Assembly: GCA_041653835.1 (NCBI GenBank)
Contig: JBAZEP010000006.1
Span: forward strand, 37 to 64,036
DNA length: 64,000 nt
Direction: 5' to 3'
Source: Candidatus Omnitrophota bacterium
Lineage (GTDB): Bacteria > Omnitrophota > Gorgyraeia > Gorgyraeales > Gorgyraeaceae
Part shown: positions 2,960 to 36,865 of the stretch, piece by piece
Position numbering within the stretch: the first letter of the stretch is position 1
How the letters are laid out: every line of letters starts with the position of its first letter
The notes under the pieces: model-generated
Told to the model about the DNA's origin: nothing
What the model saw: only the letters and a program-made list of their open reading frames with translations
Databases searched by the model: none
Position numbers and translations under genes: made by a program

Positions 2960-2987
2960 TTGACACAACGGAAAAACATGGTATAAT
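2960..2987 (+). promoter_or_regulatory. Sigma70-type promoter TTGACA-16-TATAAT for the pyr operon
   Basis: ttgaca at 2960-2965, tataat at 2982-2987. Confidence 0.5.
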
Positions 2988-3009
2988 TCAAAATTAACAG
3001 ATACCTTTA

Positions 3010-3050
3010 AATCAGCACAGAGAGGCTGAAAAGGGAGCGAAAAGTGGATA
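3010..3050 (+). promoter_or_regulatory. PyrR-binding RNA loop (pyr attenuator anti-antiterminator element)
   Basis: AGCACAGAGAGGCUGAAAAGG resembles PyrR box consensus ARUCCNGNGAGGYU; located in leader of pyrR. Confidence 0.5.
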
Positions 3051-3090
3051 TTTCAGATAGAGTTTTGTTAAATATATTGTGCCAACACAA

Positions 3091-26159: not shown

Positions 26160-26203
26160 CAACCCTGATATTTGGTAAATAGTTGCGAGGGGCAGATTTT
26201 ATT

Positions 26204-26488
26204 ATGACTCAGTGGATTTTGTATATATTGAAATGCGCTGATGGTTCTTTGTATACAGGCATAACAACTGATTTAAAACAACGGCTAAAAAGACATAATC
26301 AAGGCAGAGCTTGTAAATATACCAGATCAAGAAAGCCAGTTAAAGTAGTGTATAGTGAGGTTTTTAACAACGAATCTTCGGTAAGAAAACGAGAGATAGA
26401 AATTAAGAAATTATCTCGTATAAATAAGTTAAGATTGATAGGTTGTTTCCCTCGCCGCATAAGTATAGATAAGGGCGGCTCGGGATAA
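26204..26488 (+). CDS. GIY-YIG nuclease family protein (UPF0213/YhbQ-like)
   Basis: WILYILKCADGSLYTGITTDLKQRLKRHNQG GIY-YIG signature. Confidence 0.7.
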   Translation: MTQWILYILKCADGSLYTGITTDLKQRLKRHNQGRACKYTRSRKPVKVVYSEVFNNESSVRKREIEIKKLSRINKLRLIGCFPRRISIDKGGSG

Positions 26489-26512: not shown

Positions 26513-26589
26513 GGGGACGTAGTTCAGTTGGATAGAACGCCAGATTGTCGATCTGGAGGTCGCGGGTTCGACCCCCGTCGTCCCCGCCA
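26513..26589 (+). tRNA. tRNA-Asp (anticodon GTC) with encoded CCA
   Basis: ggggacg/cgtcccc acceptor, anticodon stem ccaga/tctgg loop ttgtcga, T-loop ttcgacc. Confidence 0.9.
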
Positions 26590-26625
26590 GTACTTTTAAC
26601 TAACTTTGTTAGTTGTAATAAATTA

Positions 26626-26709: not shown

Positions 26710-26740
26710 CACTATACATTCACTATACACTTACTATACA
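26710..26740 (+). repeat. Three direct repeats of (C/T)ACTATACA at 11-bp periodicity (iteron/operator-like) just upstream of RBS of the 26754 gene
   Basis: cactataca tt cactataca ctt actataca gggagg. Confidence 0.6.
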
Positions 26741-26753
26741 GGGAGGTATTATC

Positions 26754-27209
26754 ATGAACTACCAATACCTCCATTACGACTTCTTCACCACCTGCCGTAA
26801 AAGAAAAATCAATAAAGTCCCCATGCTTCTATTAATCTATCTCCGCGGCCTCTATTCTAGATTTGGCAACATATTTACCTGGAAAGACAAAGTAATCCTT
26901 AGTGACTTGGGCATAAACCGCAAAATGCTCCAAAGATCGCGACTCACTCTGCAAGAAAAGGGCGTTATTGACTTTGTAAGCGGCAAAGGCCAGGAACCTA
27001 CTCAATACCTTATATTAGACAGTGTTCTTGCGCCAGAGAGAGTGGACAAAAAGCAAACAGGACTGGACAGAAATAAACAGAGGTATGGACATATTGTCCA
27101 GTCTATATATAAGAGTTATGAAAATAATAAAGATAAAATACCTATCAAAATATTTCAAGGCATGTCAGAGCAAGATAGAGTTTTTTTAAAGAGTAAAGGC
27201 CTTCTTTAA
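26754..27209 (+). CDS. Winged-helix DNA-binding protein, possible replication-initiator/replisome-organiser N-terminal-like
   Basis: LSDLGINRKMLQRSRLTLQEKGVIDF wHTH-like segment; iteron-like repeats upstream. Confidence 0.35.
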   Translation: MNYQYLHYDFFTTCRKRKINKVPMLLLIYLRGLYSRFGNIFTWKDKVILSDLGINRKMLQRSRLTLQEKGVIDFVSGKGQEPTQYLILDSVLAPERVDKKQTGLDRNKQRYGHIVQSIYKSYENNKDKIPIKIFQGMSEQDRVFLKSKGLL

Positions 27210-27211
27210 CT

Positions 27212-27427
27212 ATGGATTTTAGACTCAAGAACCTAATATATCCAAAAACATGCTTCTGGATAAACGCCTTTCTTCTCAAAGAGACCCGGAAAGCTATTTT
27301 AATCATGTTTGATGGCAATAAAGTCTGGTTACCTAAAGCATGGATTTTAAGGATTCGGCGAATTAAAGACAACAATGCCATCAGAATTAAAATATCTGAG
27401 TACTACTGGATTATGAAATTTTTTTAA
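27212..27427 (+). CDS. Small hypothetical protein (71 aa)
   Basis: ORF only; no recognisable motif. Confidence 0.25.
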   Translation: MDFRLKNLIYPKTCFWINAFLLKETRKAILIMFDGNKVWLPKAWILRIRRIKDNNAIRIKISEYYWIMKFF

Positions 27428-27438
27428 TAAAATAATAG

Positions 27439-27467
27439 TTGACAAGAAATAAATTGTTGCATATAAT
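27439..27467 (+). promoter_or_regulatory. Perfect consensus sigma70 promoter TTGACA-17-TATAAT
   Basis: ttgaca 27439-27444, tataat 27462-27467, followed by AAAGGAGG RBS and ATG 27549. Confidence 0.65.
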
Positions 27468-27548
27468 TCAGCTTAGTCGACACATCCTTCCCTAGCAGGG
27501 TGCTAGAGGACTTGAGTGGATGGTCGTACAATTAAAAGGAGGTGCTTT

Positions 27549-28727
27549 ATGCAGGGCCAGTCTGCGCGTCAGCGCGAAGTAGTTCATTTTCCTTTCTACA
27601 ACGTAAGAAACATAAGTTGTCCGGACGACAATAATAATTGTCGCAAGATTTATGTAGGACACGCTCCCGTATCTTCTATTATAGACATACCAACGGATGA
27701 AGATGTTCGTGGTTATCTTATAGGAGCGGAAGGCAAAAAGAAAAAAGTTCCTTCTCAGGTGCATCGAGCCATTCGTTCAACAATATCAGACAATCCAGAA
27801 AATTTTTCTGTTCTAAACGGAGGGGTTGTTATTGTAGCTCGTGAATGCACTATTGATGAAAATGAAAAAACGTTGCTATTAAAAAATCCAAGTATTATTA
27901 ATGGTGCACAAACCCAGGGTATTGTTTCTGATTTTTTCAAAGATAATAGCGAAGAGTTAAAGGCTCAGGAATTTTCTTGTCATGTCAAGTTTGAAATTGT
28001 CGTTACCAATGACGACGACTTGATTGCTGAAATTTCTATTGCTAGAAATTTTCAAAATGACGTTATGACACTATCTATTGTCGGACGCAGAGGATACTTA
28101 GATGAACTTGAGCAAAGTTTTCAAGTTAAATCACCTGGTACGCAATTACAGAAGTCTGAAACTAAATTATCGGAAGATTATATTAAAACAGAAAGGCTTC
28201 TTCAAGTAATCGCGGCTCTTATACCGGAAGAATTATGGGTTAAAAAGGAAGATATTAATAAAGTTTATACTTATAGCATGAAAGCAAAATGTTTAAAAGA
28301 ATTTCAGGAAATTTACTTGAAAGCAAAGAAAAAAGAAGACCCTGAGCATCATAAATACCTAGAACTTTATCAATTTTATCTAGATATTTCCGCAATAGCA
28401 TGGGAGCTATACAGCAAATGGAAAACTCATCAGGGATTTGCAGGTACTGGGCTACATTCAATTAAACGCGAAGGTAGCACTATCAAAGAAGTGCCGGATG
28501 GTATAGTTTTTCCGATCCTAGCTGCTTTATCAGTTTTTGCTAAAAAGACGAATGAAGGATGGACAATTAAACTACCCAATTCATTTAGCGAAAAAGAGCT
28601 GATTAAGTCTGTCAAATCAATTTATCAAGAGATAGCTGATAGAAATCCTAATGTTATGGGTAAGAAAAAAGCCTGCTATTCTTCCTTAATTCAGATAACT
28701 TCAATATATAAAAGATTATCAAAATAG
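27549..28727 (+). CDS. Island cargo protein, possible abortive-infection (AIPR-like)/ParB-like-nuclease-fold protein
   Basis: 392 aa; INGAQTQG motif reminiscent of DGQQR/DGQHR of DUF262/DndB-like proteins; strong promoter and RBS; call by resemblance only. Confidence 0.35.
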   Translation: MQGQSARQREVVHFPFYNVRNISCPDDNNNCRKIYVGHAPVSSIIDIPTDEDVRGYLIGAEGKKKKVPSQVHRAIRSTISDNPENFSVLNGGVVIVARECTIDENEKTLLLKNPSIINGAQTQGIVSDFFKDNSEELKAQEFSCHVKFEIVVTNDDDLIAEISIARNFQNDVMTLSIVGRRGYLDELEQSFQVKSPGTQLQKSETKLSEDYIKTERLLQVIAALIPEELWVKKEDINKVYTYSMKAKCLKEFQEIYLKAKKKEDPEHHKYLELYQFYLDISAIAWELYSKWKTHQGFAGTGLHSIKREGSTIKEVPDGIVFPILAALSVFAKKTNEGWTIKLPNSFSEKELIKSVKSIYQEIADRNPNVMGKKKACYSSLIQITSIYKRLSK

Positions 28728-28742
28728 GAAGAAAAACTACTA

Positions 28743-28769
28743 CCGGGTGCTCTTTTAAAGAGCGCCCGG
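28743..28769. terminator. Bidirectional hairpin between convergent genes (ccgggtgctcttt / aaagagcgcccgg)
   Basis: 13-bp stem with one G-U position. Confidence 0.5.
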
Positions 28770-28808
28770 TACAGTTCATTTTATTAATTATTATATAAAA
28801 ACCAAAGG

Positions 28809-29585
28809 TTAACTTAATTTCGGAGGATAAAAAACGCCCAGTACCATAAAGGTCGAAGGGAAACGGTGCGTATTACCTACATAGAAATAAACATCATTCT
28901 TTGTGGCACATATCAACTCGAGCCATCTTTTACGTATCATCTCAAGTAAGTGTTCTTCAGGTTTATACTTATGCCTCCACTCCCGATATGATTGCCCAAT
29001 CTCCCAATCAATTATCATCAGATCATGACCTGGGCAAGAAGATTCACCTTCACAGAAAAATTTATATCTAAATTCAAATGGTATTAGTTCGATGGCTTGC
29101 TTCTTTTTATCAAAAAATGATAATTGCGCATAGCAAGCCTCTCTTGCTGCTTCATCTTTGGGCTTTGCTTTGCAAGAGACGAAATCAATATTCTTAGGTT
29201 TGAACATTCCGAGAGATTTCTTACTATCCGTATTTTGTTTTACTATTTCACAGAATGACTTTTCAACAGTTGTTAAAACAATGTTTTTTCTTTTTTCCCA
29301 TTTATCAGTAGTATCAAGATAATCTATTTTCTTGATACTCCCGGCATCTGCCCTAAAACTTTCAGGCCGCTTATCATCTTTCGGCCTAATGGTTTTAACT
29401 TCTATTATTGTATATTTCTTGAACTTTTGGCTTTCATCTAAATCTCTGAAAGGTATAGGATAAAGTCTAATCCAACTTTTCGTATCAAGATCAATGCCTG
29501 CAACGCATATGGTTTCTCCATATTTTTTACTCGGATTAGGATATGCCTTGACGGTGACTAATATACGCTTTGTTTGTCCGTTCAT
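28809..29585 (-). CDS. Hypothetical protein (258 aa), no recognisable domain; downstream gene of DUF488 operon
   Basis: Long ORF, 9-nt gap to DUF488 gene, Cys/His cluster CEGESSCPGHD. Confidence 0.55.
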   Translation of the reverse strand: MNGQTKRILVTVKAYPNPSKKYGETICVAGIDLDTKSWIRLYPIPFRDLDESQKFKKYTIIEVKTIRPKDDKRPESFRADAGSIKKIDYLDTTDKWEKRKNIVLTTVEKSFCEIVKQNTDSKKSLGMFKPKNIDFVSCKAKPKDEAAREACYAQLSFFDKKKQAIELIPFEFRYKFFCEGESSCPGHDLMIIDWEIGQSYREWRHKYKPEEHLLEMIRKRWLELICATKNDVYFYVGNTHRFPSTFMVLGVFYPPKLS

Positions 29586-29594
29586 AGAAAACTA

Positions 29595-30056
29595 TTAGAT
29601 ATGCTTTACCTCGAAAGAAATGCCATTTATTCTGCTGACTCTATTAGCAACTGCGCTACGATGACAATTGGTATATTCTTTCTCGAAACATAAAAGGCAG
29701 GATAGCTTTTCATTTACGATCTCGTATAACTCCTCCAACTCTTTACTGCAAGTCTCTAAGTGTTCCCCATACTTCTCAAAAAAATAGTCAAAGTCTTTAT
29801 CTTGATAAACCTTCTTTCGTAAATACGAAGGACTTCCAAGTGCTTTTATATGAATGTAATCAATGTCATTGTCTGCCAGGCGCTGTCGTAAAACGCTTTT
29901 AGAAAAACCTTTTTTACGGCTCAATGGAATTTCTCTGACATCGACTATTCTCTGGATATTATAGGCATTAAGATATTCTATGAATTCTTCTATCTTTCTT
30001 CCTTCATATCCGGTAGTATAAACAGTCTTATATGATGAAATAGATAAGTTTTCCAT
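29595..30056 (-). CDS. DUF488 family protein
   Basis: TVYTTGYEGRKIEEFIEYLNAYNIQRIVDVREIPLSRKKGFSK matches DUF488 N-terminal signature. Confidence 0.55.
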   Translation of the reverse strand: MENLSISSYKTVYTTGYEGRKIEEFIEYLNAYNIQRIVDVREIPLSRKKGFSKSVLRQRLADNDIDYIHIKALGSPSYLRKKVYQDKDFDYFFEKYGEHLETCSKELEELYEIVNEKLSCLLCFEKEYTNCHRSAVANRVSRINGISFEVKHI

Positions 30057-30121
30057 CGCTCTTTCCTGAAATTATACCCCAGTATATAGAAAAAAGCAAA
30101 TCTTTCTGATTAAGAGAAAAT

Positions 30122-30143
30122 TGTCTTGACAATTGTCAAGACA
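30122..30143. promoter_or_regulatory. 22-bp perfect palindrome TGTCTTGACAATTGTCAAGACA (operator) overlapping -35 of promoter TTGACA-17-TATACT for HTH regulator
   Basis: Palindrome read directly; tatact at 30149-30154; regulator ATG at 30163 (near-leaderless). Confidence 0.6.
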
Positions 30144-30162
30144 TCGGGTATACTTATTTTAG

Positions 30163-30342
30163 ATGACGGAAAGGGAAATACTTTCTAAGATCGAAGACTA
30201 CATGCGAAAACATAACCTCCGTCAGTGGGAATTCGCGAAAAAGATCGGAATTCCTGATGGCACGCTTAATAGGTGGCTTAGAGGCAGGTCAAATATCTCA
30301 AATGCCTATCTGAAGCTGCTAAAAAAAGAAGGGGTTATATAA
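30163..30342 (+). CDS. Small HTH (XRE/Cro-CI-like) transcriptional regulator, 59 aa
   Basis: MTEREILSKIEDYMRKHNLRQWEFAKKIGIPDGTLNRWLRGRSNISNAYL; below ORF-track size cutoff. Confidence 0.55.
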   Translation: MTEREILSKIEDYMRKHNLRQWEFAKKIGIPDGTLNRWLRGRSNISNAYLKLLKKEGVI

Positions 30343-30362
30343 AAATATTTTTTTATTCAAAA

Positions 30363-30378
30363 TCTTGACAATTGTCAA
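30363..30378. promoter_or_regulatory. Second copy of operator palindrome CTTGACAATTGTCAAG upstream of excisionase-like gene
   Basis: 16-bp perfect palindrome identical to core of 30122..30143. Confidence 0.6.
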
Positions 30379-30404
30379 GCCAGTTGTTCAGTGAGGAGGT
30401 AAAA

Positions 30405-30590
30405 ATGACTTATCTAACACCAAAAGAAATTAGCGTAAAGACAGGTTTGAAGTACTCAACTGTTCTTGAATGGGCTAAAGACGGCATCATCCCTGCCCGG
30501 ATAATACAGAACAGGAAGAAAAGCAAGTATTTCTTTGTGGAAAAAGAGGTTGAGGCAGTAATAGAAAGACATAAAATAGCGGCGTTCTGA
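30405..30590 (+). CDS. xis: Excisionase-like HTH protein (AlpA/Xis family)
   Basis: MTYLTPKEISVKTGLKYSTVLEWAKDGIIPA; stop overlaps integrase ATG. Confidence 0.5.
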   Translation: MTYLTPKEISVKTGLKYSTVLEWAKDGIIPARIIQNRKKSKYFFVEKEVEAVIERHKIAAF

Positions 30591-31681
30591 TGAAAAAAGG
30601 ATATATATTCAAAAGAGGAAACAGCTGGTTTATTGCGCTGCCGGACCCATCTTATGCCTCAGGTTATAGGATTAAAGCTCCCTCCTACAGCACAAGATCC
30701 GCTGCTCAAAAGGCACTTAGAGAAAGAAAAAACGCCATAGGGTCCAGCCAAGCCGGATGGCTTAGCGAAGGCGACACATATTATGCTGATTACATTAAGG
30801 ATTATCTACAATTTGTTTTAACCAATCATAGCCAGGAGACCCTAAAAACATACAAAGGCGTGTTAAAAGATTTTAACCTCTTCCTTCAAGAGAAATACCC
30901 GCGAATGCAGCGCCTTAAGGAATTTTTTATCAGGCTTTTTGAAGAATACAAAATATGGCTTAAAGAAACAGGTCATAAGGACAATACAGTAAATAACCAT
31001 ATTAAGGTATTAAAGACTATATTTAACCAGGCAATAAGGTGGGAATTATTAAAAAAGAACCCTGTAAAGGATGTGCATAATATAGGCGTGGAAGATGAAA
31101 AGCCGATCGTCAGCCTAGATACGCCGGAAAAATTCGAATTATTCTTTGAAAGATGCAAAATTATAAGACCGGAATACTATAATCATTACTACTGCACGGC
31201 AAAACTTGGCCTTAGATGGAAAGAAATGATAAGTCTTGAATGGGATGATGTTGATTTTGAGAATGCAGTTGTAATTATAAGGAAAAAGAAAGGATTTATC
31301 CCGAAAGGCAGGACTCAAAAAGACCGTAAGCCCAAAACCAGGATAATTTCTGCGCCTCAAGATGTTTTGGATATATTAAAATCAATGGAACATAAACATG
31401 GGAAAATATTTCTTAAAGATGACAGCCCAATAAGTCCTAAGGATAAGAGTTTTAGAAGATGGATTATCGCGATAGTCAGGGGGACGCAATTAGAGGGGAT
31501 GTCGCGAATGCATGAATTAAGGCATACCACAGGCCGTATATTAGGACTAACTCACAGCCTTCATGAGATAAAAGAATTTTTGGGCCATACTGATATCAGG
31601 ACTACCGAAAGATATGTACGGGTAGGAGATGCGGCTAAGAAAAGTATGGCTAAAAGCTTAGAACAGTTTGGGAGGAAATAA
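30590..31681 (+). CDS. int: Tyrosine recombinase / phage-type integrase
   Basis: C-terminal HELRHTTGRIL...GHTDIRTTERYVRV catalytic R-H-R-Y motifs. Confidence 0.85.
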   Translation: MKKGYIFKRGNSWFIALPDPSYASGYRIKAPSYSTRSAAQKALRERKNAIGSSQAGWLSEGDTYYADYIKDYLQFVLTNHSQETLKTYKGVLKDFNLFLQEKYPRMQRLKEFFIRLFEEYKIWLKETGHKDNTVNNHIKVLKTIFNQAIRWELLKKNPVKDVHNIGVEDEKPIVSLDTPEKFELFFERCKIIRPEYYNHYYCTAKLGLRWKEMISLEWDDVDFENAVVIIRKKKGFIPKGRTQKDRKPKTRIISAPQDVLDILKSMEHKHGKIFLKDDSPISPKDKSFRRWIIAIVRGTQLEGMSRMHELRHTTGRILGLTHSLHEIKEFLGHTDIRTTERYVRVGDAAKKSMAKSLEQFGRK

Positions 31682-31790
31682 TATGAATTTATTATACATT
31701 TCACTACACAAGCTATATAATAAAAACTGTAACTTATTAAAAATAATGGCGTTGAGGATTAGGGGGAATTTATCCCCGTCGTCCCCGCCA

Positions 31791-33259
31791 ATATACCTAA
31801 GATACTCAAGTTTTGCATGTTTTAGGTATTTTTTTATGCTTTTTCACTCTTACCGCAGCACACTTTGAAGTCTAAAAATGCCAGATTTTAGGGTAAAAAA
31901 CAATATCGTAATGTCGGTTTGTTCTTTATTTGTCGCCCTATTAATTATAGAAATAGTTATTTTTAATTTTTCAAGTCTTTCCAAGGATGAGAAAAAAGTT
32001 TGGACAACAACGAGCAAAGGCTATGGAAATTGTTATTCATCCGATACAAAAGGCTATTTTCCGATATCTTTAAGAATATCGAAAGATAGAGAAGTCTTTC
32101 GAAAAATTCTGCTTAGTCCCACCATAGAATATCTTGTTGATAAAACCCCTTATTGCATTGTTTATGATGGACAAAAAAGGAGAGAGGGATTTTTTGCTGA
32201 CAGAGAACGTGAGGTGGCTATAGTAGGAGATTCTTTTGTTTTCGGAGAGGGAGTCAAAGAAGAAGATACATTAGGGTATTTACTGGGGTTAAAATTCACC
32301 AAAGCCAATTTCAAAAACTATGGGAGCACGGGGCTAATATCGAGTCACTCTTTACGCTCACCTTAGATATGTTTGAATGGGAAAAAGATATAGATGCAGT
32401 AGTCTATTTTTATAATCTCAACGATATATTAGTATGTCCTGAGATTGAAAGCCGGAGAAAATATATAATAGATTTTCAGAATATTAAATTGGAAAACGTT
32501 AAAAGATCGCGCAACTCCATAACAAAGTTATTATCAAAAAGCAATATCTACCGCTTGATAGAAAACTTGCTTATCCTTAGCAGAGAAACTCATTTGACAG
32601 TTGAAAATTATTTAGATATGTATTTTAATCCTATAAACTCAGATGAATTTGAAAAGACAATAGGATTTTTAGTGTCTATGAGTAATGTGGCAAAAGAAAG
32701 AAACGTTAATTTTTATGTTGTCATTTACCCTCTTTTATATAAAGATATCTATGGAAGATATTCGTTCCTTCAGGTTCACGAGCTCCTAAAAAATATCTGT
32801 GAGAAGCATAACATTCCCTGTATAGATGCTTATCCTGCTTTTGCAAACAGGTACTCTTTAAAGAAATTTACAGTTCATCCGATAGATTATCATCCGAACC
32901 GGATCGCTAATGAGAGAGTGGTTGAGTATTTGTCAAAAAAGGATGATTTCTTACAAGGTTACAAATAATCTTAAGAGTCTCCAAAAGTCCTTAAAATCCC
33001 GATAGTTGGTTACCCTCAGTTTTTATACTTGCGTAGTTATTTTGGATCAAATTTTGAGATTTTGTGTGCCAGATTTGTGCCAAGAATTAATAGGTTGGCA
33101 ATTTATTGAAGATAGAACAGAGAGAGGGTGCGAAAGAACAATATACCCAAGATATATCATATAGCACATTTTTAGCACACTTCAGATCTTGACTTATATA
33201 ACCCATGTATTTATAATGTACTAGGGATATGGGGAATGGTTCCCTGTCCGTCCCCGCCA
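31791..33259 (+). mobile_element. Remnant island 2 (older tandem insertion) ending in degenerate tRNA-Asp 3'-half copy
   Basis: 33225..33259 gggatatggggaatggttccctgtccgtccccgcca resembles tRNA-Asp T-arm+acceptor with last 10 nt identical. Confidence 0.4.
31878..32968 (+). pseudogene. SGNH/GDSL hydrolase disrupted by a frameshift near 32330-32366 (ORFs 31878..32366 and 32369..32968)
   Basis: Block I VAIVGDSFVFGEG in first ORF; block III YFYNLND and block V DYHPN in second ORF; frames differ by 1. Confidence 0.5.
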
Positions 33260-33268
33260 TAAACTTAC

Positions 33269-33336: not shown

Positions 33337-33405
33337 TATATAAATATCGGATATTTGAACCATATAGCCTTAATAAAAGGACAAGGCTATTTTTTTGGAC
33401 TAATT

Positions 33406-34815
33406 ATGACGAAGATTAAAAAAGTATTAATCCTGATCCTGGTGGCCCTTTTTATTTCTACCAATATCTTGGCAGAAGACAAGGGTTTACCGCCTTCATC
33501 AGAGGCTTTTTTACGTATTCCTCTGGGGACAGCCCAGGTTTCAGACCGTTTCCAAAGGATACTCGAGCTAAGAGCTAAACATACAGATGTCATAAAAGAA
33601 AATATAGGGCGGCTTGAAAAAGAACTCAGTAAATTATACATAGACCTGGAAAAAGTTTTTTCAAAGGCGCTTATGCCGCTCGAAAAAGGCGAAATCGGCA
33701 TAGAAAATATCCGGAAGAGGTTCGGTATCAAAAATACACAAAATATGTATAATACTATAACAAGGATAAGAAAAAGGGAAATTAAACTCTCGATTTTAAA
33801 AAATGACAGGGATTCATTTCTCAATTTAAATTCTCACGGAGAGGGATATCCGGCAGCTGATCTGAGCGTGAATATTGAGCAGTGTTTTTCCAGGGCGGCC
33901 AATAAGATAGGCCTAACCGCATCTCTTTATAGGCATTATGATAACCGGACAGGGAGTATTGCACATAGTTATCTTATCCTGTCCGCAGACAATAAAGCTA
34001 TATCTATAGATTTCGCCGCAGGCCGGTTTATCCCTGAAAACGCGAAACAGGTTGTTGTCGAAGAATTTTCCGCATACCGGGATAAAATACAGCAGGCCAT
34101 AGATAACGCGTACTCCGCAGAACGATACGCGGATGATATGGAAAAAATAGAAAGCGGCAAGGAAGATTTTTTAAATAAAACCGAAGACAATATAAACATC
34201 GCGGCGGAAACCTCGGATGTCTCCGTGGAAATGGCATCTTTTTCCGATTATTCACGCCTGGTAAAGGAGTTGTATGATATCCCGGAGCGGGAACAAGAGG
34301 ACGCCGATTCCACGGTATATCTTAGCGATATGACAAAAGATATAGAGATGGATATCTATAAAAAAGAAACTGAAAAGGTTTTACTGTCTGTTTTTGTCGC
34401 GAGGGGCGTATCCGGTAAAATACTGGGAATAAGGGTGCTAGATAAACCGCACTATGTTCCGGAATTTGGGATAAAAGTGGTGTTCGGGGAAGACTTTGTA
34501 TTAAAAAAATACAGAGAACTGGGGGTAGGCACCAAGCTTAGAATGGCGGCGTTGGCCTATCTGATAGAAAACAAGTACGAAGCTTATGAGGTGGGCGTAA
34601 AAGAAAATAATGCAGCCAGTTATAATAATTTCATAAGTATATGCAATAGCCTCGGGATCCCCAGAAAAAATATTGTACCGGTTACGCATAAATTATATCC
34701 GGAAAGCGTAGGCAGCTTTAAGCATTATCTTCTATTGTTGAAACCCGGAGAAGATCTTTTCGAAAAGCTGCATGATAACGTGATCGCTGCCAGGGGAATA
34801 AAAACCAATATTTAA
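33406..34815 (+). CDS. Secreted protein with C-terminal GNAT-like region
   Basis: Signal peptide MTKIKKVLILILVALFISTNILA; C-terminal ...RELGVGTKLRMAALAYL... resembling acetyltransferase motif A. Confidence 0.4.
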   Translation: MTKIKKVLILILVALFISTNILAEDKGLPPSSEAFLRIPLGTAQVSDRFQRILELRAKHTDVIKENIGRLEKELSKLYIDLEKVFSKALMPLEKGEIGIENIRKRFGIKNTQNMYNTITRIRKREIKLSILKNDRDSFLNLNSHGEGYPAADLSVNIEQCFSRAANKIGLTASLYRHYDNRTGSIAHSYLILSADNKAISIDFAAGRFIPENAKQVVVEEFSAYRDKIQQAIDNAYSAERYADDMEKIESGKEDFLNKTEDNINIAAETSDVSVEMASFSDYSRLVKELYDIPEREQEDADSTVYLSDMTKDIEMDIYKKETEKVLLSVFVARGVSGKILGIRVLDKPHYVPEFGIKVVFGEDFVLKKYRELGVGTKLRMAALAYLIENKYEAYEVGVKENNAASYNNFISICNSLGIPRKNIVPVTHKLYPESVGSFKHYLLLLKPGEDLFEKLHDNVIAARGIKTNI

Positions 34816-34864
34816 AGATGCGCGCGTCTTATGGCATTAAAGAACGCCGCGATAGTAAATTCTT

Positions 34865-36865
34865 ATGAAGATCAAAATAAACCATAATTCCATGAAGACA
34901 TTATTAATAGCAGGTTTTATATCGATTTTTTCCTGCGCTTATCCGTGTTTTGCGCCTGCCGAGGAAAATCTCAGAGTGCCGATCAACAGTTATGATAGGA
35001 TAACCAAAATCTTCGAGCGTTTCAGCGAGGCAGATCGGTTAAAAATGGAAGCGGAACTATCTATGTTATCTCAGGATTGGGCAGGATTCAATGAGATAGT
35101 AAAAAGGCTTAAGGCCATGGATAATATTGAAGTTTTTGTCGCGGCAGGTCCGGAAATGAAAGAAAAAGATATTGCTGTGGACATTATCTTATCTTCACTG
35201 GTCAAACAGGACAGATTGACAGAATATCTGTCCAAAATAAATTTTGAGCACACTAATGACGAGCGCGCGTTTTTAGAGCATACTTTAGATAATATTTATC
35301 AGCATGTCAAAGAAGGGGTAGGCCTGATCATAAAACAAAAAATAGTTTTAGATACGGGCGACATGTATTCGGAAATATCGGTTATTGATAATGGCCCGGG
35401 CTTTATAGATAGAAGCGGCAACCGGGTATCAATAGAAACAGCGCTTGAATTGGAAAAGAGCCCGGGCAAAGGAGGAAGAGAAGGCCTTGGCTTACCAGCC
35501 GCAACAAAATTTTATACAGATTTTTCCACGATTCACATACCGGGCAGCAGCCAGCTTTCCAATGGATCATGGAAGAGCTCGAACAAGAAATCTTTCGGCA
35601 CGACTATCACGGGATATTTCCTGATAAATACGGTAAGATGGGAAGCTGTTAAGAAGGATATAATAAAAAGAGCTGTTTTGTATGTGGAGGATATGGAACT
35701 CGCGTCAGCCATAGAGAATACATCGCCTCCGGATACGGATATTCGAAAGGTATATGATTTTATTGCCGCTAGATTTGGACAACAGCGCGATGAAGCGCTG
35801 TCTATGATGGGAAGGCATCTGTTGGATCCGGCAAGATGGGAACTTATCGATGAGGCATTGGACCGCAAACTTTCCATAACTTCGATAGCCGATCTGCTTT
35901 ATTACAAAGCTCTGGACGGAGAAGTTCGGATGGAGACGTTCCCTGCCTGGTTCAGGGAACTTGTTTTGACGCAAAGCGGGTTTAGCAGTACAGGTATGCA
36001 CCGGCATGTGGTGGATATATTGTGGTCGGTTTACTATAGGCAAAAACATCTGGACCTGGCCTCGGGATCGCCGTTACTCGACAAACTTGTTAAGATAACA
36101 GAGCAGGACCGAATGTCGGGAGAAATATTAGGCGCGATCCAGGGGAAGATGCCGGATTATTCAGCCCGTGATATTACAAAATTTATTGTTTCAAAGCTTA
36201 GAGATATCAATGTAGTGGATTCCGCGTATAATTTCGGGGGCATTAATAGGTTATTAAGGGATGATATAGTTGTAGAAGAGGAATCTGCCGGAGGCGCTCC
36301 GCTTAGACTGAATAATTTAAGATTAAAGCATGAATTGAAAAAATCTCAATTAGCGTTTACCAGCGCCGATCTTGGTTCCCGAAAAGAAGGTTTTTATGTA
36401 TGGTTGACAGATATGCCGTTATGCCGTGAATTATCGCAATATATTAGAACTAAATATGGGTCCAAAGGACCGGTGCTTTTGAGTTCAGTGGAATTTGAAC
36501 TTATTAGCGGGGACGGCACGGCTCAGGTGGATATGCTGCAGGGATGGCTTCGTATTGACAGCAGGTTCCCTAAAGGTATCCGGGAAAAAATAGGTCCTGT
36601 AAGTTCTGCTGAAGAGATAAGCGCGGAGGCCTTCTACGCTTATGCCGTACAACGCGGTTTCAACAGGATCCGCGCGCCAGCCGGCAGTCAACTATTCGCG
36701 AGCGACACTGAACTCCCTATGCATAGAAACACTATAGAACGCCTTAATAATTTATACCGCAGGCTGGGATATAAATTGATATGTGAAAAAGATAAATGGT
36801 GGTGGGAACTTGAAATGCCTTACAATAAGTACGCAGGTTTGGATAGCAGAAGGACTGATTTATAA
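34865..36865 (+). CDS. Secreted protein with GHKL (HATPase_c-like) ATPase domain
   Basis: Signal peptide; N box EHTLDNIYQH, G1 VIDNGPGF, G2 GKGGREGLGL, G3 GTTITG; no HisKA or receiver seen. Confidence 0.45.
   Translation: MKIKINHNSMKTLLIAGFISIFSCAYPCFAPAEENLRVPINSYDRITKIFERFSEADRLKMEAELSMLSQDWAGFNEIVKRLKAMDNIEVFVAAGPEMKEKDIAVDIILSSLVKQDRLTEYLSKINFEHTNDERAFLEHTLDNIYQHVKEGVGLIIKQKIVLDTGDMYSEISVIDNGPGFIDRSGNRVSIETALELEKSPGKGGREGLGLPAATKFYTDFSTIHIPGSSQLSNGSWKSSNKKSFGTTITGYFLINTVRWEAVKKDIIKRAVLYVEDMELASAIENTSPPDTDIRKVYDFIAARFGQQRDEALSMMGRHLLDPARWELIDEALDRKLSITSIADLLYYKALDGEVRMETFPAWFRELVLTQSGFSSTGMHRHVVDILWSVYYRQKHLDLASGSPLLDKLVKITEQDRMSGEILGAIQGKMPDYSARDITKFIVSKLRDINVVDSAYNFGGINRLLRDDIVVEEESAGGAPLRLNNLRLKHELKKSQLAFTSADLGSRKEGFYVWLTDMPLCRELSQYIRTKYGSKGPVLLSSVEFELISGDGTAQVDMLQGWLRIDSRFPKGIREKIGPVSSAEEISAEAFYAYAVQRGFNRIRAPAGSQLFASDTELPMHRNTIERLNNLYRRLGYKLICEKDKWWWELEMPYNKYAGLDSRRTDL

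What the first reader, a model, noticed from the sequence alone, without database searches (positions are those of the whole stretch)
27439..28727. Island cargo gene with textbook consensus promoter and ParB-like/AIPR-like motif
A perfect TTGACA-17-TATAAT promoter plus AAAGGAGG RBS drives a 392-aa protein whose INGAQTQG motif resembles the DGQQR/DGQHR motif of DUF262/DndB/AIPR-type proteins implicated in abortive infection and DNA-modification-dependent defence. A consensus promoter this strong is rare in this window and suggests constitutive high expression, as for single-gene Abi proteins.
Basis: partly seen in the sequence, partly recalled or inferred. Interest (0 to 1): 0.55.

Follow-up and report, generated by a model that had tools for sequence, protein, structure and literature searches.

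The report
Solo AIPR defence gene with RNA leader
The gene is a real but already annotated member of the AIPR "abortive infection" family riding on a small tRNA-inserted island, and the new result is a structured RNA hairpin between its promoter and ribosome-binding site that accompanies this gene across many bacterial phyla and probably controls it.

Summary
TTGACA-17-TATAAT (27439-27467), AAAGGAGG (27535-27542), a 392-aa ORF (27549-28727) and a terminator (28741-28771) are all present. The protein matches Pfam AIPR (PF10592, 87 bits against a cut-off of 25), and NCBI already calls it "AIPR family protein" in a Candidatus Omnitrophota MAG. It belongs to a compact ~390-aa subfamily that lacks the ~250-aa N-terminal domain of AbiU1 and MzaE. 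It has no conserved gene partner in 80 genomes.

Here it is cargo of a 5.2-kb tRNA-Asp integrative island, next to a PDC-M19-like candidate defence pair. The ParB/DUF262-like fold is supported only moderately, by Foldseek against viral models and by the literature, not by sequence profiles.

The new result is a 54-nt hairpin (27476-27529) that starts about at the predicted transcript 5' end. Its architecture is conserved upstream of the gene's relatives:
- 17 of 18 base pairs show compensatory changes.
- G.U pairs outnumber A.C 47 to 11.
- Covariance-model hits occur only at this position.
- Four independent viral-contig loci confirm it.
- Rfam has no match.

So "constitutive high expression" is unsafe. 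The leader probably mediates post-transcriptional control, possibly by binding AIPR, as RCd22 does for AbiF. Function is untested.

The parts
26513..26589 (+). tRNA-Asp (GTC), the integration target. Its 3' end is the attL side of the island.
   Evidence: ARAGORN; Rfam tRNA, 69.9 bits.
26573..26592 (.). attL direct repeat (CCCCGTCGTCCCCGCCAGTA), made of the tRNA 3' end plus 3 nt.
   Evidence: the repeat finder family D1; alignment.
26754..27427 (+). Two island ORFs of unknown function: 151 aa (26754-27209) and 71 aa (27212-27427).
   Evidence: the ORF listing. No Pfam, PADLOC or PHROG hit. No homologues in the 80 related loci.
27439..27467 (+). Sigma-70 consensus promoter, TTGACA-17-TATAAT.
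   Evidence: In related loci a -35/-10-like pair sits at the same distance from the hairpin.
27476..27529 (+). Conserved structured 5' leader hairpin. P1a is 27476-81 paired with 27523-29. A27482 is a bulge. P1b is CATCC 27483-87 paired with GGATG 27518-22. P2a is TCC 27489-91 paired with GGA 27508-10. A27507 is a bulge. P2b is CTAGCA 27492-97 paired with TGCTAG 27501-06, with loop GGG. The 3' internal loop is 27511-17.
   Evidence: MFE -22 kcal/mol, z=-2.5. The same architecture appears in independent folds of related loci. Covariation is shown. Covariance-model hits fall only at this position. G.U outnumbers A.C 47 to 11. No Rfam match.
27535..27542 (+). Shine-Dalgarno sequence AAAGGAGG, 6 nt before the ATG and 5 nt after the hairpin base.
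   Evidence: Sequence.
27549..28727 (+). Short AIPR-family protein of 392 aa. Residues ~10-200 form a ParB/Srx-like domain carrying ENVR, NGxQT and ARNFQN motifs. Residues ~210-392 form a helical domain.
   Evidence: Pfam AIPR; homologues; alignments; AF2 model; Foldseek against BFVD.
28741..28771 (.). Terminator hairpin with a 14-bp stem, lying between the convergent AIPR and PDC-M19B-like genes.
   Evidence: scan_promoters_terminators.
28809..30056 (-). Second cargo: a pair resembling the PADLOC candidate system PDC-M19. The 258-aa gene (28809-29585) resembles PDC-M19B. The 153-aa DUF488 gene (29595-30056) resembles PDC-M19A.
   Evidence: PADLOC 4.2e-67 and 9.1e-41; Pfam DUF488 8.9e-30. Not linked to AIPR elsewhere.
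30163..31681 (+). Island mobility and regulation module: HTH_3 regulator (30163-30342), HTH_17 excisionase (30372-30590) and tyrosine integrase (30590-31681).
   Evidence: Pfam; PHROGs.
31774..31793 (.). attR direct repeat (CCCCGTCGTCCCCGCCAATA), matching attL at 19 of 20 positions.

Best explanation
The gene encodes a genuine AIPR-family protein of a compact ~390-aa subfamily. The subfamily keeps the AIPR domain, which is ParB/Srx-like and carries the near-invariant NGxQT pocket. It lacks the N-terminal effector-type domain of AbiU1 and MzaE. The gene travels as a self-contained single-gene module: sigma-70 promoter, then a 54-nt structured hairpin at the very 5' end of the mRNA, then SD, ORF and terminator. 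In this window the module is cargo of a 5.2-kb integrase-bearing island inserted in tRNA-Asp, next to a PDC-M19-like candidate defence pair. The most likely function is a stand-alone abortive-infection or toxin-like defence protein. Its ParB-fold domain would bind a nucleotide or nucleic acid. Its output from the strong promoter would be held in check after transcription by the leader, most plausibly because the AIPR protein binds its own leader beside the SD. That binding could give translational autorepression, neutralisation of the protein, or both, as in AbiF-RCd22. Shown here: family membership, island structure, promoter, solo-gene status, and the conservation, covariation, strand specificity and positional exclusivity of the leader. 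Inferred: defence function, ligand binding, and protein-leader binding.
For: Family membership is shown by Pfam AIPR at 87 bits, by partial AbiU, MzaE and Abi-alpha matches confined to the AIPR domain, and by all 110 relatives scanned hitting AIPR. For distribution, one search found 1328 homologues, and the near-full-length relatives listed are mostly ~370-450 aa, and the 80 genome loci come from many phyla. For solo status, the 555 neighbouring proteins fall into 525 clusters, none present in more than 5 of the 80 loci, and the immediate neighbours are mostly housekeeping genes. The island is defined, and its PDC-M19-like neighbours. The leader has the same two-helix, two-bulge architecture in independent MFE folds. 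A strict architecture pattern matches 45 of 80 leaders, against 1 of 800 shuffles, 0 of 769 random windows and 0 of 80 reverse complements. In an unfitted gapless alignment 88% of cells pair, against 27-48% when partners are slid, and 13 of 18 pairs change on both sides. In the 29-sequence covariance-model alignment 91% of cells pair and 17 of 18 pairs are compensatory, with a score of 0.673 against 0.265 for shuffles (0 of 500 reach it). The alphaproteobacterial class shows 99% pairing. Covariance models hit 29 and 18 loci respectively, all on the + strand immediately upstream of the gene, with no comparable off-target in 1.19 Mb searched on both strands. Four of four unseen viral-contig homologues at 44-59% identity have the leader. 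A similar hairpin persists at 31% identity. G.U outnumbers A.C 47 to 11. The hairpin starts 7-9 nt after the -10 element. As precedent, the AbiF toxin is neutralised and down-regulated by the structured RNA RCd22 encoded in its own leader (PMC12373285).
Against: No experiment exists for any short AIPR. The short form lacks the domain usually proposed as the effector in AIPR proteins, described as HEPN in PMC3506569 and as nuclease-like in PMC13064643. In other genomes the neighbours are housekeeping genes, not defence islands. The family is rare on phages and plasmids. The ParB-like link rests on Foldseek TM-scores of only 0.35-0.53 and on the literature. No sequence profile or PDB hit supports it. 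Unpaired leader nucleotides are poorly conserved. No terminator lies between the hairpin and the SD, so the RCd22-type attenuation and RNA-excess mechanism is not reproduced. A generic 5' stabiliser hairpin is not excluded.
Confidence: 0.55

Rival explanations
1. The leader RNA is itself a functional partner of the protein. It would act as a cis-encoded antitoxin or cofactor that binds and neutralises the ParB-fold AIPR protein, in the manner of type III toxin-antitoxin systems or AbiF-RCd22. When phage shuts off host transcription, the RNA would decay and free the toxin.
For: The gene is always solo, so any neutralising partner must lie inside the module. The hairpin is conserved down to 31% protein identity and is found only with this gene. 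The bulged helices resemble a protein-recognition site. AbiF-RCd22 provides a precedent.
Against: There is a single hairpin, with no tandem repeats. No terminator gives the RNA a stoichiometric excess over the protein. Toxicity of the short AIPR is unknown. ParB-fold proteins are known mainly as DNA and NTP binders (own knowledge).
Confidence: 0.2
2. The hairpin is only a 5'-terminal mRNA stabiliser or expression element. Together with the consensus promoter it gives high constitutive expression of AIPR.
For: The hairpin begins within about 0-3 nt of the predicted TSS. It is stable at -22 kcal/mol. Its loops are not conserved in sequence. By general knowledge, 5'-terminal stem-loops protect mRNAs from 5'-end-dependent decay.
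Against: A generic stabiliser would not need a fixed architecture. This one keeps a 1-nt 5' bulge, a 1-nt 3' bulge, a 4-8-nt 3' internal loop, and conserved CAYCC/GGRUG and GCC/GGC steps across phyla and sequence classes.
Confidence: 0.15
3. The element works as double-stranded DNA. It would be a palindromic, parS-like operator at +1 to +54, bound by the ParB-fold AIPR protein for transcriptional autorepression, as DndB binds the dnd promoter.
For: AIPR is DndB/ParB-like. DndB is a DNA-binding negative regulator (PMC4507180, listed). The element abuts the promoter.
Against: G.U cells outnumber A.C cells 47 to 11, so pairing is maintained on the transcribed strand only. The structure is asymmetric, with bulges on opposite strands and a one-sided internal loop. 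The reverse complement never gives the same architecture (0 of 80). Helix sequences vary freely with compensation.
Confidence: 0.07
4. The protein is not a defence gene. It would be a DndB-like regulator or a selfish addiction gene with some other role, and the Abi label is only an inherited family name.
For: The anti-phage effect reported for the family prototype AbiU1 is modest, with a 10- to 100-fold reduction in efficiency of plaquing (PMC13064643). The short form lacks the putative effector domain. The neighbours in 80 genomes are housekeeping genes.
Against: The distribution is patchy and cross-phylum with 45-67% identity, which indicates horizontal transfer. The gene carries its own promoter and terminator. 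Here it sits on an integrative island beside a PDC-M19-like pair. No target operon is linked to it.
Confidence: 0.1

Closest known systems
AbiU1 (Lactococcus lactis pND001) / Pfam AIPR PF10592
   Same: They share the AIPR domain, with a full-length Pfam match. PADLOC AbiU aligns to residues 70-194. Both are single-protein systems. AbiU1 gives modest phage resistance and delays phage transcription (PMC13064643).
   Different: AbiU1 is about 540-590 aa, with an additional ~250-aa N-terminal domain described as nuclease-like or HEPN. The window protein is 392 aa and starts about 68 residues before the AIPR domain. Long AIPR proteins are reported as linked to R-M operons (PMC2292703, PMC3506569). 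The short form is solo. No leader RNA has been described for AbiU.
MzaE of the MZA (MzaABCDE) system
   Same: It is an AIPR-family protein. NCBIfam MzaE and PADLOC MzaE give weak partial matches.
   Different: The score is 30.6 bits against the equivalog cut-off of 1050. The alignment covers only MzaE positions 256-375 of 593. No MzaA-D-type partners are present.
DndB / DUF262 (GmrS N-terminal domain, SspE N-domain) ParB/Srx-fold proteins
   Same: The NGxQT motif sits at a strand-to-helix junction like DGQQR/DGQHR (secondary structure; motif comparison from own knowledge). Foldseek hits GmrSD-N, DndB-like and ParB/Srx models. Published analysis groups AbiU1/AIPR with COG1479 in the ParB superfamily (PMC3632139).
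   Different: There is no Pfam DUF262, DndB or ParBc match in any of 110 members. The motif is N-G-x-Q-T rather than D-G-Q-[QH]-R. No HNH or DUF1524 nuclease domain is fused, and no dnd or ssp genes are nearby.
AbiF-RCd22 (abiF RNA motif RF03085) and type III toxin-antitoxin systems (ToxIN, AbiQ)
   Same: A consensus housekeeping-sigma-factor promoter drives a structured RNA encoded in the leader of a single abortive-infection gene. In AbiF the RNA binds and neutralises the protein in cis and in trans (PMC12373285).
   Different: The protein fold is different: ParB-like rather than HEPN/Abi_2 or an endoRNase. There is one hairpin rather than two motifs or tandem repeats. No terminator separates the RNA from the ORF. 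There is no match to RF03085 or to any other Rfam family. RNA-protein binding is untested here.

Membership tests
Pfam AIPR (PF10592) | HMM score above the gathering threshold over most of the model. | tested here: met
   87.2 bits against 25, covering residues 69-363 and profile positions 13-301 of 308. All 110 of 110 relatives also match.
Pfam AIPR (PF10592) | Conserved polar motifs of the domain: ENVR, NGxQT and ARNxQN. | tested here: met
   N52, R54, N118, G119, Q121, R166 and N167 are invariant or at least 90% conserved in alignments A2 and A3.
AbiU (AbiU1-type, PADLOC/DefenseFinder sense) | Full-length architecture: an N-terminal ~250-aa domain plus a C-terminal AIPR domain. | tested here: not met
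   The PADLOC AbiU match covers only profile positions 257-371 of 537. The PHROG 1841 match covers 248-405 of 567. The protein is 392 aa.
AbiU (AbiU1-type) | Confers abortive-infection-type phage resistance. | not testable with these tools
   This needs a phage challenge of a clone.
MZA system (MzaE) | NCBIfam equivalog score and neighbouring MzaA-D genes. | tested here: not met
   30.6 bits against a cut-off of 1050. The neighbours are PDC-M19-like, HTH, integrase and unknown ORFs.
DUF262 / DndB (ParB-like, DGQQR/DGQHR) | Match to Pfam DUF262 (PF03235), DndB or ParBc. | tested here: not met
   None of 110 members hits these families at E<=1.
ParB/Srx fold superfamily | Structural similarity of the N-terminal domain to ParB, Srx or DUF262 structures. 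| tested here: inconclusive
Type III toxin-antitoxin | Tandem antitoxin RNA repeats followed by a terminator upstream of an endoRNase toxin. | tested here: not met
   There is no tandem repeat in 27430-27548. No terminator-like site lies between the promoter and the ORF.
AbiF-RCd22 / abiF motif | An RF03085 motif in the leader and an Abi_2 protein. | tested here: not met
   No Rfam hit at E<=10 on 27430-27560. Pfam finds only AIPR.
Any described RNA family (Rfam 15) for the leader | A covariance-model match. | tested here: not met
   Searches give only tRNAs or chance-level hits.
tRNA-targeting integrative island | A tyrosine integrase, a tRNA 3'-end target, flanking direct repeats and deviant composition. 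| tested here: met
   Integrase at 9e-16 (Pfam) and 6e-39 (PHROG 1). Direct repeats at 26573-92 and 31774-93. GC 0.35-0.38 against 0.47.

The most novel reading that the evidence does not exclude
The conserved 5' hairpin is not just a regulatory leader but an RNA partner of the ParB-fold AIPR protein. It would act as a cis-encoded antitoxin or cofactor that forms an RNP. This would define a new RNA-protein (type III-like) abortive-infection module, with a toxin or sensor that is a ParB/Srx-type NTP-binding protein rather than an RNase.
Probability: 0.22. Interest if true: 0.75.

Novelty: new variant of a known kind. Interest (0 to 1): 0.55.

Why it matters
AIPR is a widespread defence-associated family that is often cited but has no worked-out mechanism. 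This analysis separates out a minimal, solo subfamily that contains only the AIPR domain. That makes it the simplest system in which to ask what the domain does. The analysis also shows that the gene always travels with a specific structured RNA at the 5' end of its mRNA, and this RNA matches no Rfam family. If the protein binds this RNA, it would extend the recently shown AbiF-RCd22 principle, in which an abortive-infection toxin is controlled by an RNA in its own leader, to an unrelated protein fold. It would also give a direct experimental handle on AIPR: RNA binding, toxicity with and without the leader, and NTP dependence. More generally, a consensus promoter in front of a defence gene should not be read as constitutive expression without checking the leader.

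Tried and rejected
- **Solved-structure searches.** phmmer and a profile hmmsearch against PDB sequences found nothing meaningful. Foldseek against the PDB found no hit at E<=1e-3.
- **Conserved partner gene.** None of the window's island genes recurs near the homologues. Neighbour clustering found no family present in more than 5 of the 80 loci. Pfam on 126 immediate neighbours shows mostly housekeeping genes. An operon or multi-gene system was therefore rejected.
- **Sequence-level link to DUF262, DndB or ParBc.** No member gave a hit.
- **Plain MAFFT alignment of all leaders.** It mixed the sequence classes and RNAalifold recovered only the apical helix. I replaced it with gapless class-specific seeds and covariance models.
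- **Anti-SD pairing upstream of the hairpin.** This appeared in several MFE folds. I judged it probably spurious, because those bases overlap the -10 element or lie upstream of the predicted TSS.
- **Riboswitch reading.** Rejected as unlikely because the unpaired nucleotides are not conserved.
- **Integron attC, dif-like or other DNA recombination site.** Rejected on position (between promoter and SD), the absence of R'/R'' boxes and the strand-specific G.U bias.
- **Type III antitoxin repeats.** None were found.
- **Rfam.** Nothing matched.
- **Phage and plasmid collections.** Only distant or rare matches were found.
Full report
**Observation.** TTGACA lies at 27439-27444, followed by a 17-nt spacer and TATAAT at 27462-27467. 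AAAGGAGG lies at 27535-27542. The ATG is at 27549 and the stop codon ends at 28727, giving 392 aa. This is the only 12/12 promoter match between 20 and 36 kb. It is one of two perfect sites in the whole window, where 0.08 are expected by chance. A strong hairpin terminator follows at 28741-28771. The SIINGAQTQG motif lies at residues 115-124.

**Identity of the protein.** Pfam AIPR (PF10592) matches at E=2.1e-24, 87.2 bits against a cut-off of 25, over profile positions 13-301 of 308.
- PADLOC AbiU (1.4e-16), NCBIfam MzaE (30.6 bits against a cut-off of 1050) and PHROG 1841 'Abi alpha-like' match only the first part of the domain. They align to positions around 250-400 of proteins 540-590 aa long.
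- The window protein is therefore an AIPR domain preceded by only 68 residues. It lacks the ~250-aa N-terminal domain of AbiU1 and MzaE, which the literature describes as HEPN or nuclease-like (PMC3506569; PMC13064643).
- The exact protein is already in NCBI as 'MAG: AIPR family protein [Candidatus Omnitrophota bacterium]'.
- It belongs to a well-populated subfamily. The near-full-length relatives listed are mostly ~370-450 aa. One search found 1328 homologues. One search found 707 clusters at 50% identity with E<=1e-3. In the 80 genome loci, members at 44-64% identity occur in Acidobacteriota, Bacteroidota, Verrucomicrobiota, Cyanobacteria, Planctomycetota, Desulfobulbaceae, Alpha-, Beta- and Gammaproteobacteria and others.
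- The invariant or near-invariant residues are N52/R54 (ENVR), N90/G92, N118-G119-x-Q121-T122 (NGxQT), R166-N167-x-Q169-N170 and E204.

**Fold.** An AlphaFold2 model built on 110 sequences is confident, with pLDDT 94.8 and pTM 0.89. NGxQT sits at a strand-to-helix junction.
- Foldseek against the PDB gives no hit at E<=1e-3. The pNOB8 ParB-N domain is rank 4 at E=0.42. Sequence and profile searches of the PDB are empty.
- Against BFVD the top hit is a 371-aa phage 'AIPR protein' at 7e-12. It is followed by several GmrSD-N/DUF262, DndB-like and ParB/Srx proteins at E of about 1e-4 to 1e-2, with probability up to 1.0 and TM 0.3-0.53.

**Context in the window.** The gene lies in a low-GC stretch, 0.35-0.38 against about 0.47 in the flanks.
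- tRNA-Asp is at 26513-26589. Its 3' end is repeated at 31774-31793 with 19 of 20 matches. This delimits a 5.2-kb island.
- The island carries two unknown ORFs, the AIPR module, a convergent gene pair, an HTH_3 regulator, an HTH_17 excisionase and a tyrosine integrase.
- The convergent pair matches the PADLOC candidate defence system PDC-M19: B at 4e-67 and A (DUF488) at 9e-41.
- The flanks are host housekeeping genes: a V-type ATPase operon, DUF520 and deoxyhypusine synthase.
- 'Island cargo' is therefore correct, and the island is a small mobile element carrying defence-type cargo.

**Context elsewhere.** In 80 loci from species-representative genomes, none of the window's island genes recurs.
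- The 555 proteins within four genes of the homologue fall into 525 clusters. The largest cluster is present in 5 loci.
- The gene is usually separated from its neighbours by tens to hundreds of bases. The downstream gene is most often convergent.
- The immediate neighbours are mostly unrelated housekeeping genes.
- The family is rare on sequenced phages and plasmids. It occurs at only 6 loci in IMG/VR.
- The short AIPR is therefore an autonomous single-gene unit, unlike the R-M-linked long AIPR proteins described in the literature (PMC2292703, PMC3506569).

**The new result: a conserved leader RNA.** While checking whether relatives also have strong promoters, I found that the best sigma-70-like site sits at a nearly constant distance from the start codon. 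The bases before the SD also share motifs.
- *Architecture.* Independent MFE folds of the upstream 80-90 nt give the same architecture in locus after locus. An outer helix P1 is interrupted by a 1-nt bulge on its 5' strand. A short linker follows, then an inner helix P2 with a 1-nt bulge on its 3' strand and a 3-5-nt loop. A 4-8-nt internal loop occurs on the 3' side only.
- *In the window.* The hairpin spans 27476-27529, with -22 kcal/mol and z=-2.5. It starts 8 nt after the -10 element, at about +1 to +3 of the transcript. It ends 5 nt before the SD.
- *Specificity of the architecture.* A strict dot-bracket pattern for this architecture matches 45 of 80 leaders. It matches 1 of 800 dinucleotide shuffles, 0 of 769 random windows from the same loci and 0 of 80 reverse complements.
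- *Covariation in an unfitted alignment.* A gapless 12-sequence alignment gives 88% paired cells, against 27-48% when partners are slid. Thirteen of 18 pairs change on both sides.
- *Covariance models.* A model built on that seed, and its iterate, found 26 and then 29 matches in 1.19 Mb searched on both strands. All were on the + strand directly upstream of the AIPR start. The iterate had no off-target at E<=1.
- *Covariation in the model alignment.* In the 29-sequence alignment 91% of cells pair and 17 of 18 pairs have compensatory changes. The covariation score is 0.673 against 0.265 for shuffles (0 of 500 reach it) and 0.04-0.18 for slid controls. This alignment is fitted to the model, which favours pairing. 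The unfitted result points the same way.
- *Second sequence class.* An alphaproteobacterial class has the same architecture, with 99% pairing and 10 of 16 pairs changed on both sides. Its model finds 18 loci, again only upstream of the gene.
- *Coverage.* The covariance models or the MFE pattern detect the element in 64 of 80 loci. Most of the remainder show it by eye.
- *Strand specificity.* G.U cells outnumber A.C cells 47 to 11. This is expected for an RNA of the gene's strand and not for a DNA palindrome.
- *Independent test.* The four viral-contig homologues at 44-59% identity were not used in any model, and all carry the element immediately upstream. A homologue at 31% identity still shows a similar hairpin.
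- *Prior description.* Rfam 15 has no match, in the window or in eight related loci. No paper in the library combines AIPR with 'RNA motif'.

**Interpretation.** The consensus promoter is part of a conserved module: promoter, 5'-terminal hairpin, SD, ORF.
- The leader's conserved shape includes bulges on opposite strands, the CAYCC/GGRUG and GCC/GGC steps, and variable loops. This looks like a protein-recognition element rather than a ligand pocket.
- Its base lies about 0-12 nt from the SD, as inferred from a distance of 11-27 nt to the ATG.
- I infer that it mediates post-transcriptional control of a potentially harmful protein, most plausibly through AIPR binding its own leader.
- A direct precedent exists. 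The AbiF toxin of C. difficile is transcribed from a consensus SigA promoter behind the structured RNA RCd22. That RNA lowers abiF expression and neutralises the protein by direct binding, in cis and in trans (PMC12373285).
- There are differences here. The module has a single hairpin with no tandem repeats. No terminator lies between the RNA and the ORF. The protein fold is unrelated.
- Alternatives remain open: a plain mRNA stabiliser, a true RNA antitoxin or cofactor, or a DNA operator. The operator is disfavoured by the G.U bias and the asymmetry.
- The defence role itself is inferred from family membership, horizontal mobility and the island context. It is untested, and the short form lacks the domain usually proposed as the effector.

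**Verdict.** The additions are twofold. First, it belongs to a minimal, solo AIPR subfamily. Second, that subfamily carries a conserved structured leader RNA that matches no Rfam 15 family and that I found in no paper in the searched library. This argues against reading the promoter as simple constitutive expression, and it offers a tractable route to the mechanism of AIPR.

Noticed in passing
window 28809-30056 (- strand): The convergent gene pair next to AIPR matches the PADLOC candidate defence system PDC-M19. The 258-aa protein matches PDC-M19B at 4e-67. The 153-aa DUF488 protein matches PDC-M19A at 9e-41. The pair does not co-occur with short AIPR in the 80 other loci.
   Followed up: partly
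window 31794-33262 (third repeat at 33243-33262): A third, degenerate copy of the tRNA-Asp 3' end (70% identical) lies 1.5 kb past attR. The sequences preceding attR and this copy resemble each other. The segment between them holds two unknown ORFs (162 and 199 aa) and no integrase. It may be a decayed second island inserted in tandem. Low GC continues to about 34.8 kb.
   Followed up: partly
window 30119-30141 and 30363-30385: Two copies of the palindrome TCTTGACAATTGTCAAGA flank the small HTH_3 gene. The first overlaps the -35 of an 11/12 promoter at 30126-30154. They look like operators for autoregulation of the island's regulator, excisionase and integrase genes.
   Followed up: no
window 26710-26740: An 11-nt unit (CACTATACACT) is repeated 2.8 times just inside attL, upstream of the 151-aa ORF. 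It could be integrase arm-type sites or iterons.
   Followed up: no
window 2960-3068: The only other perfect consensus promoter in the window (TTGACA-16-TATAAT, with TG before the -10) precedes a pyr operon: a PyrR-like PRTase, aspartate carbamoyltransferase and dihydroorotase. Its leader gives a sub-threshold Rfam PyrR-binding-site match at 3000-3068 (31 bits against 54, E=0.0065). Both consensus promoters in this window are thus followed by structured leaders.
   Followed up: partly
window 26183-26488: A 101-aa GIY-YIG domain ORF (1.3e-19) sits between tRNA-Val and tRNA-Asp, just outside the island.
   Followed up: no
window 27483-27491 / 27518-27526 and related loci: The 5' strand of P1 is pyrimidine-rich (CAYCC, and GACUCACCC in relatives) and the 3' strand is purine-rich (GGRUGGUC). 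From memory, these resemble the 16S anti-SD tail and an extended SD. In several loci the MFE also pairs a CUCC-like stretch upstream of the hairpin with the real SD. Both may be coincidence. Neither was tested.
   Followed up: no
L082, L085, L086, L087 (IMG/VR contigs): In the longer viral contigs the short AIPR gene lies within a few kb of a contig end. This is as expected for prophage-end cargo or flanking host DNA rather than a core phage gene.
   Followed up: no
window 33355-36865: Two large ORFs (486 and 666 aa) follow the island region and have no convincing family match. There are only weak Cas10-like, GNAT and DUF5028 hits at E of about 1e-3 to 1e-4.
   Followed up: no
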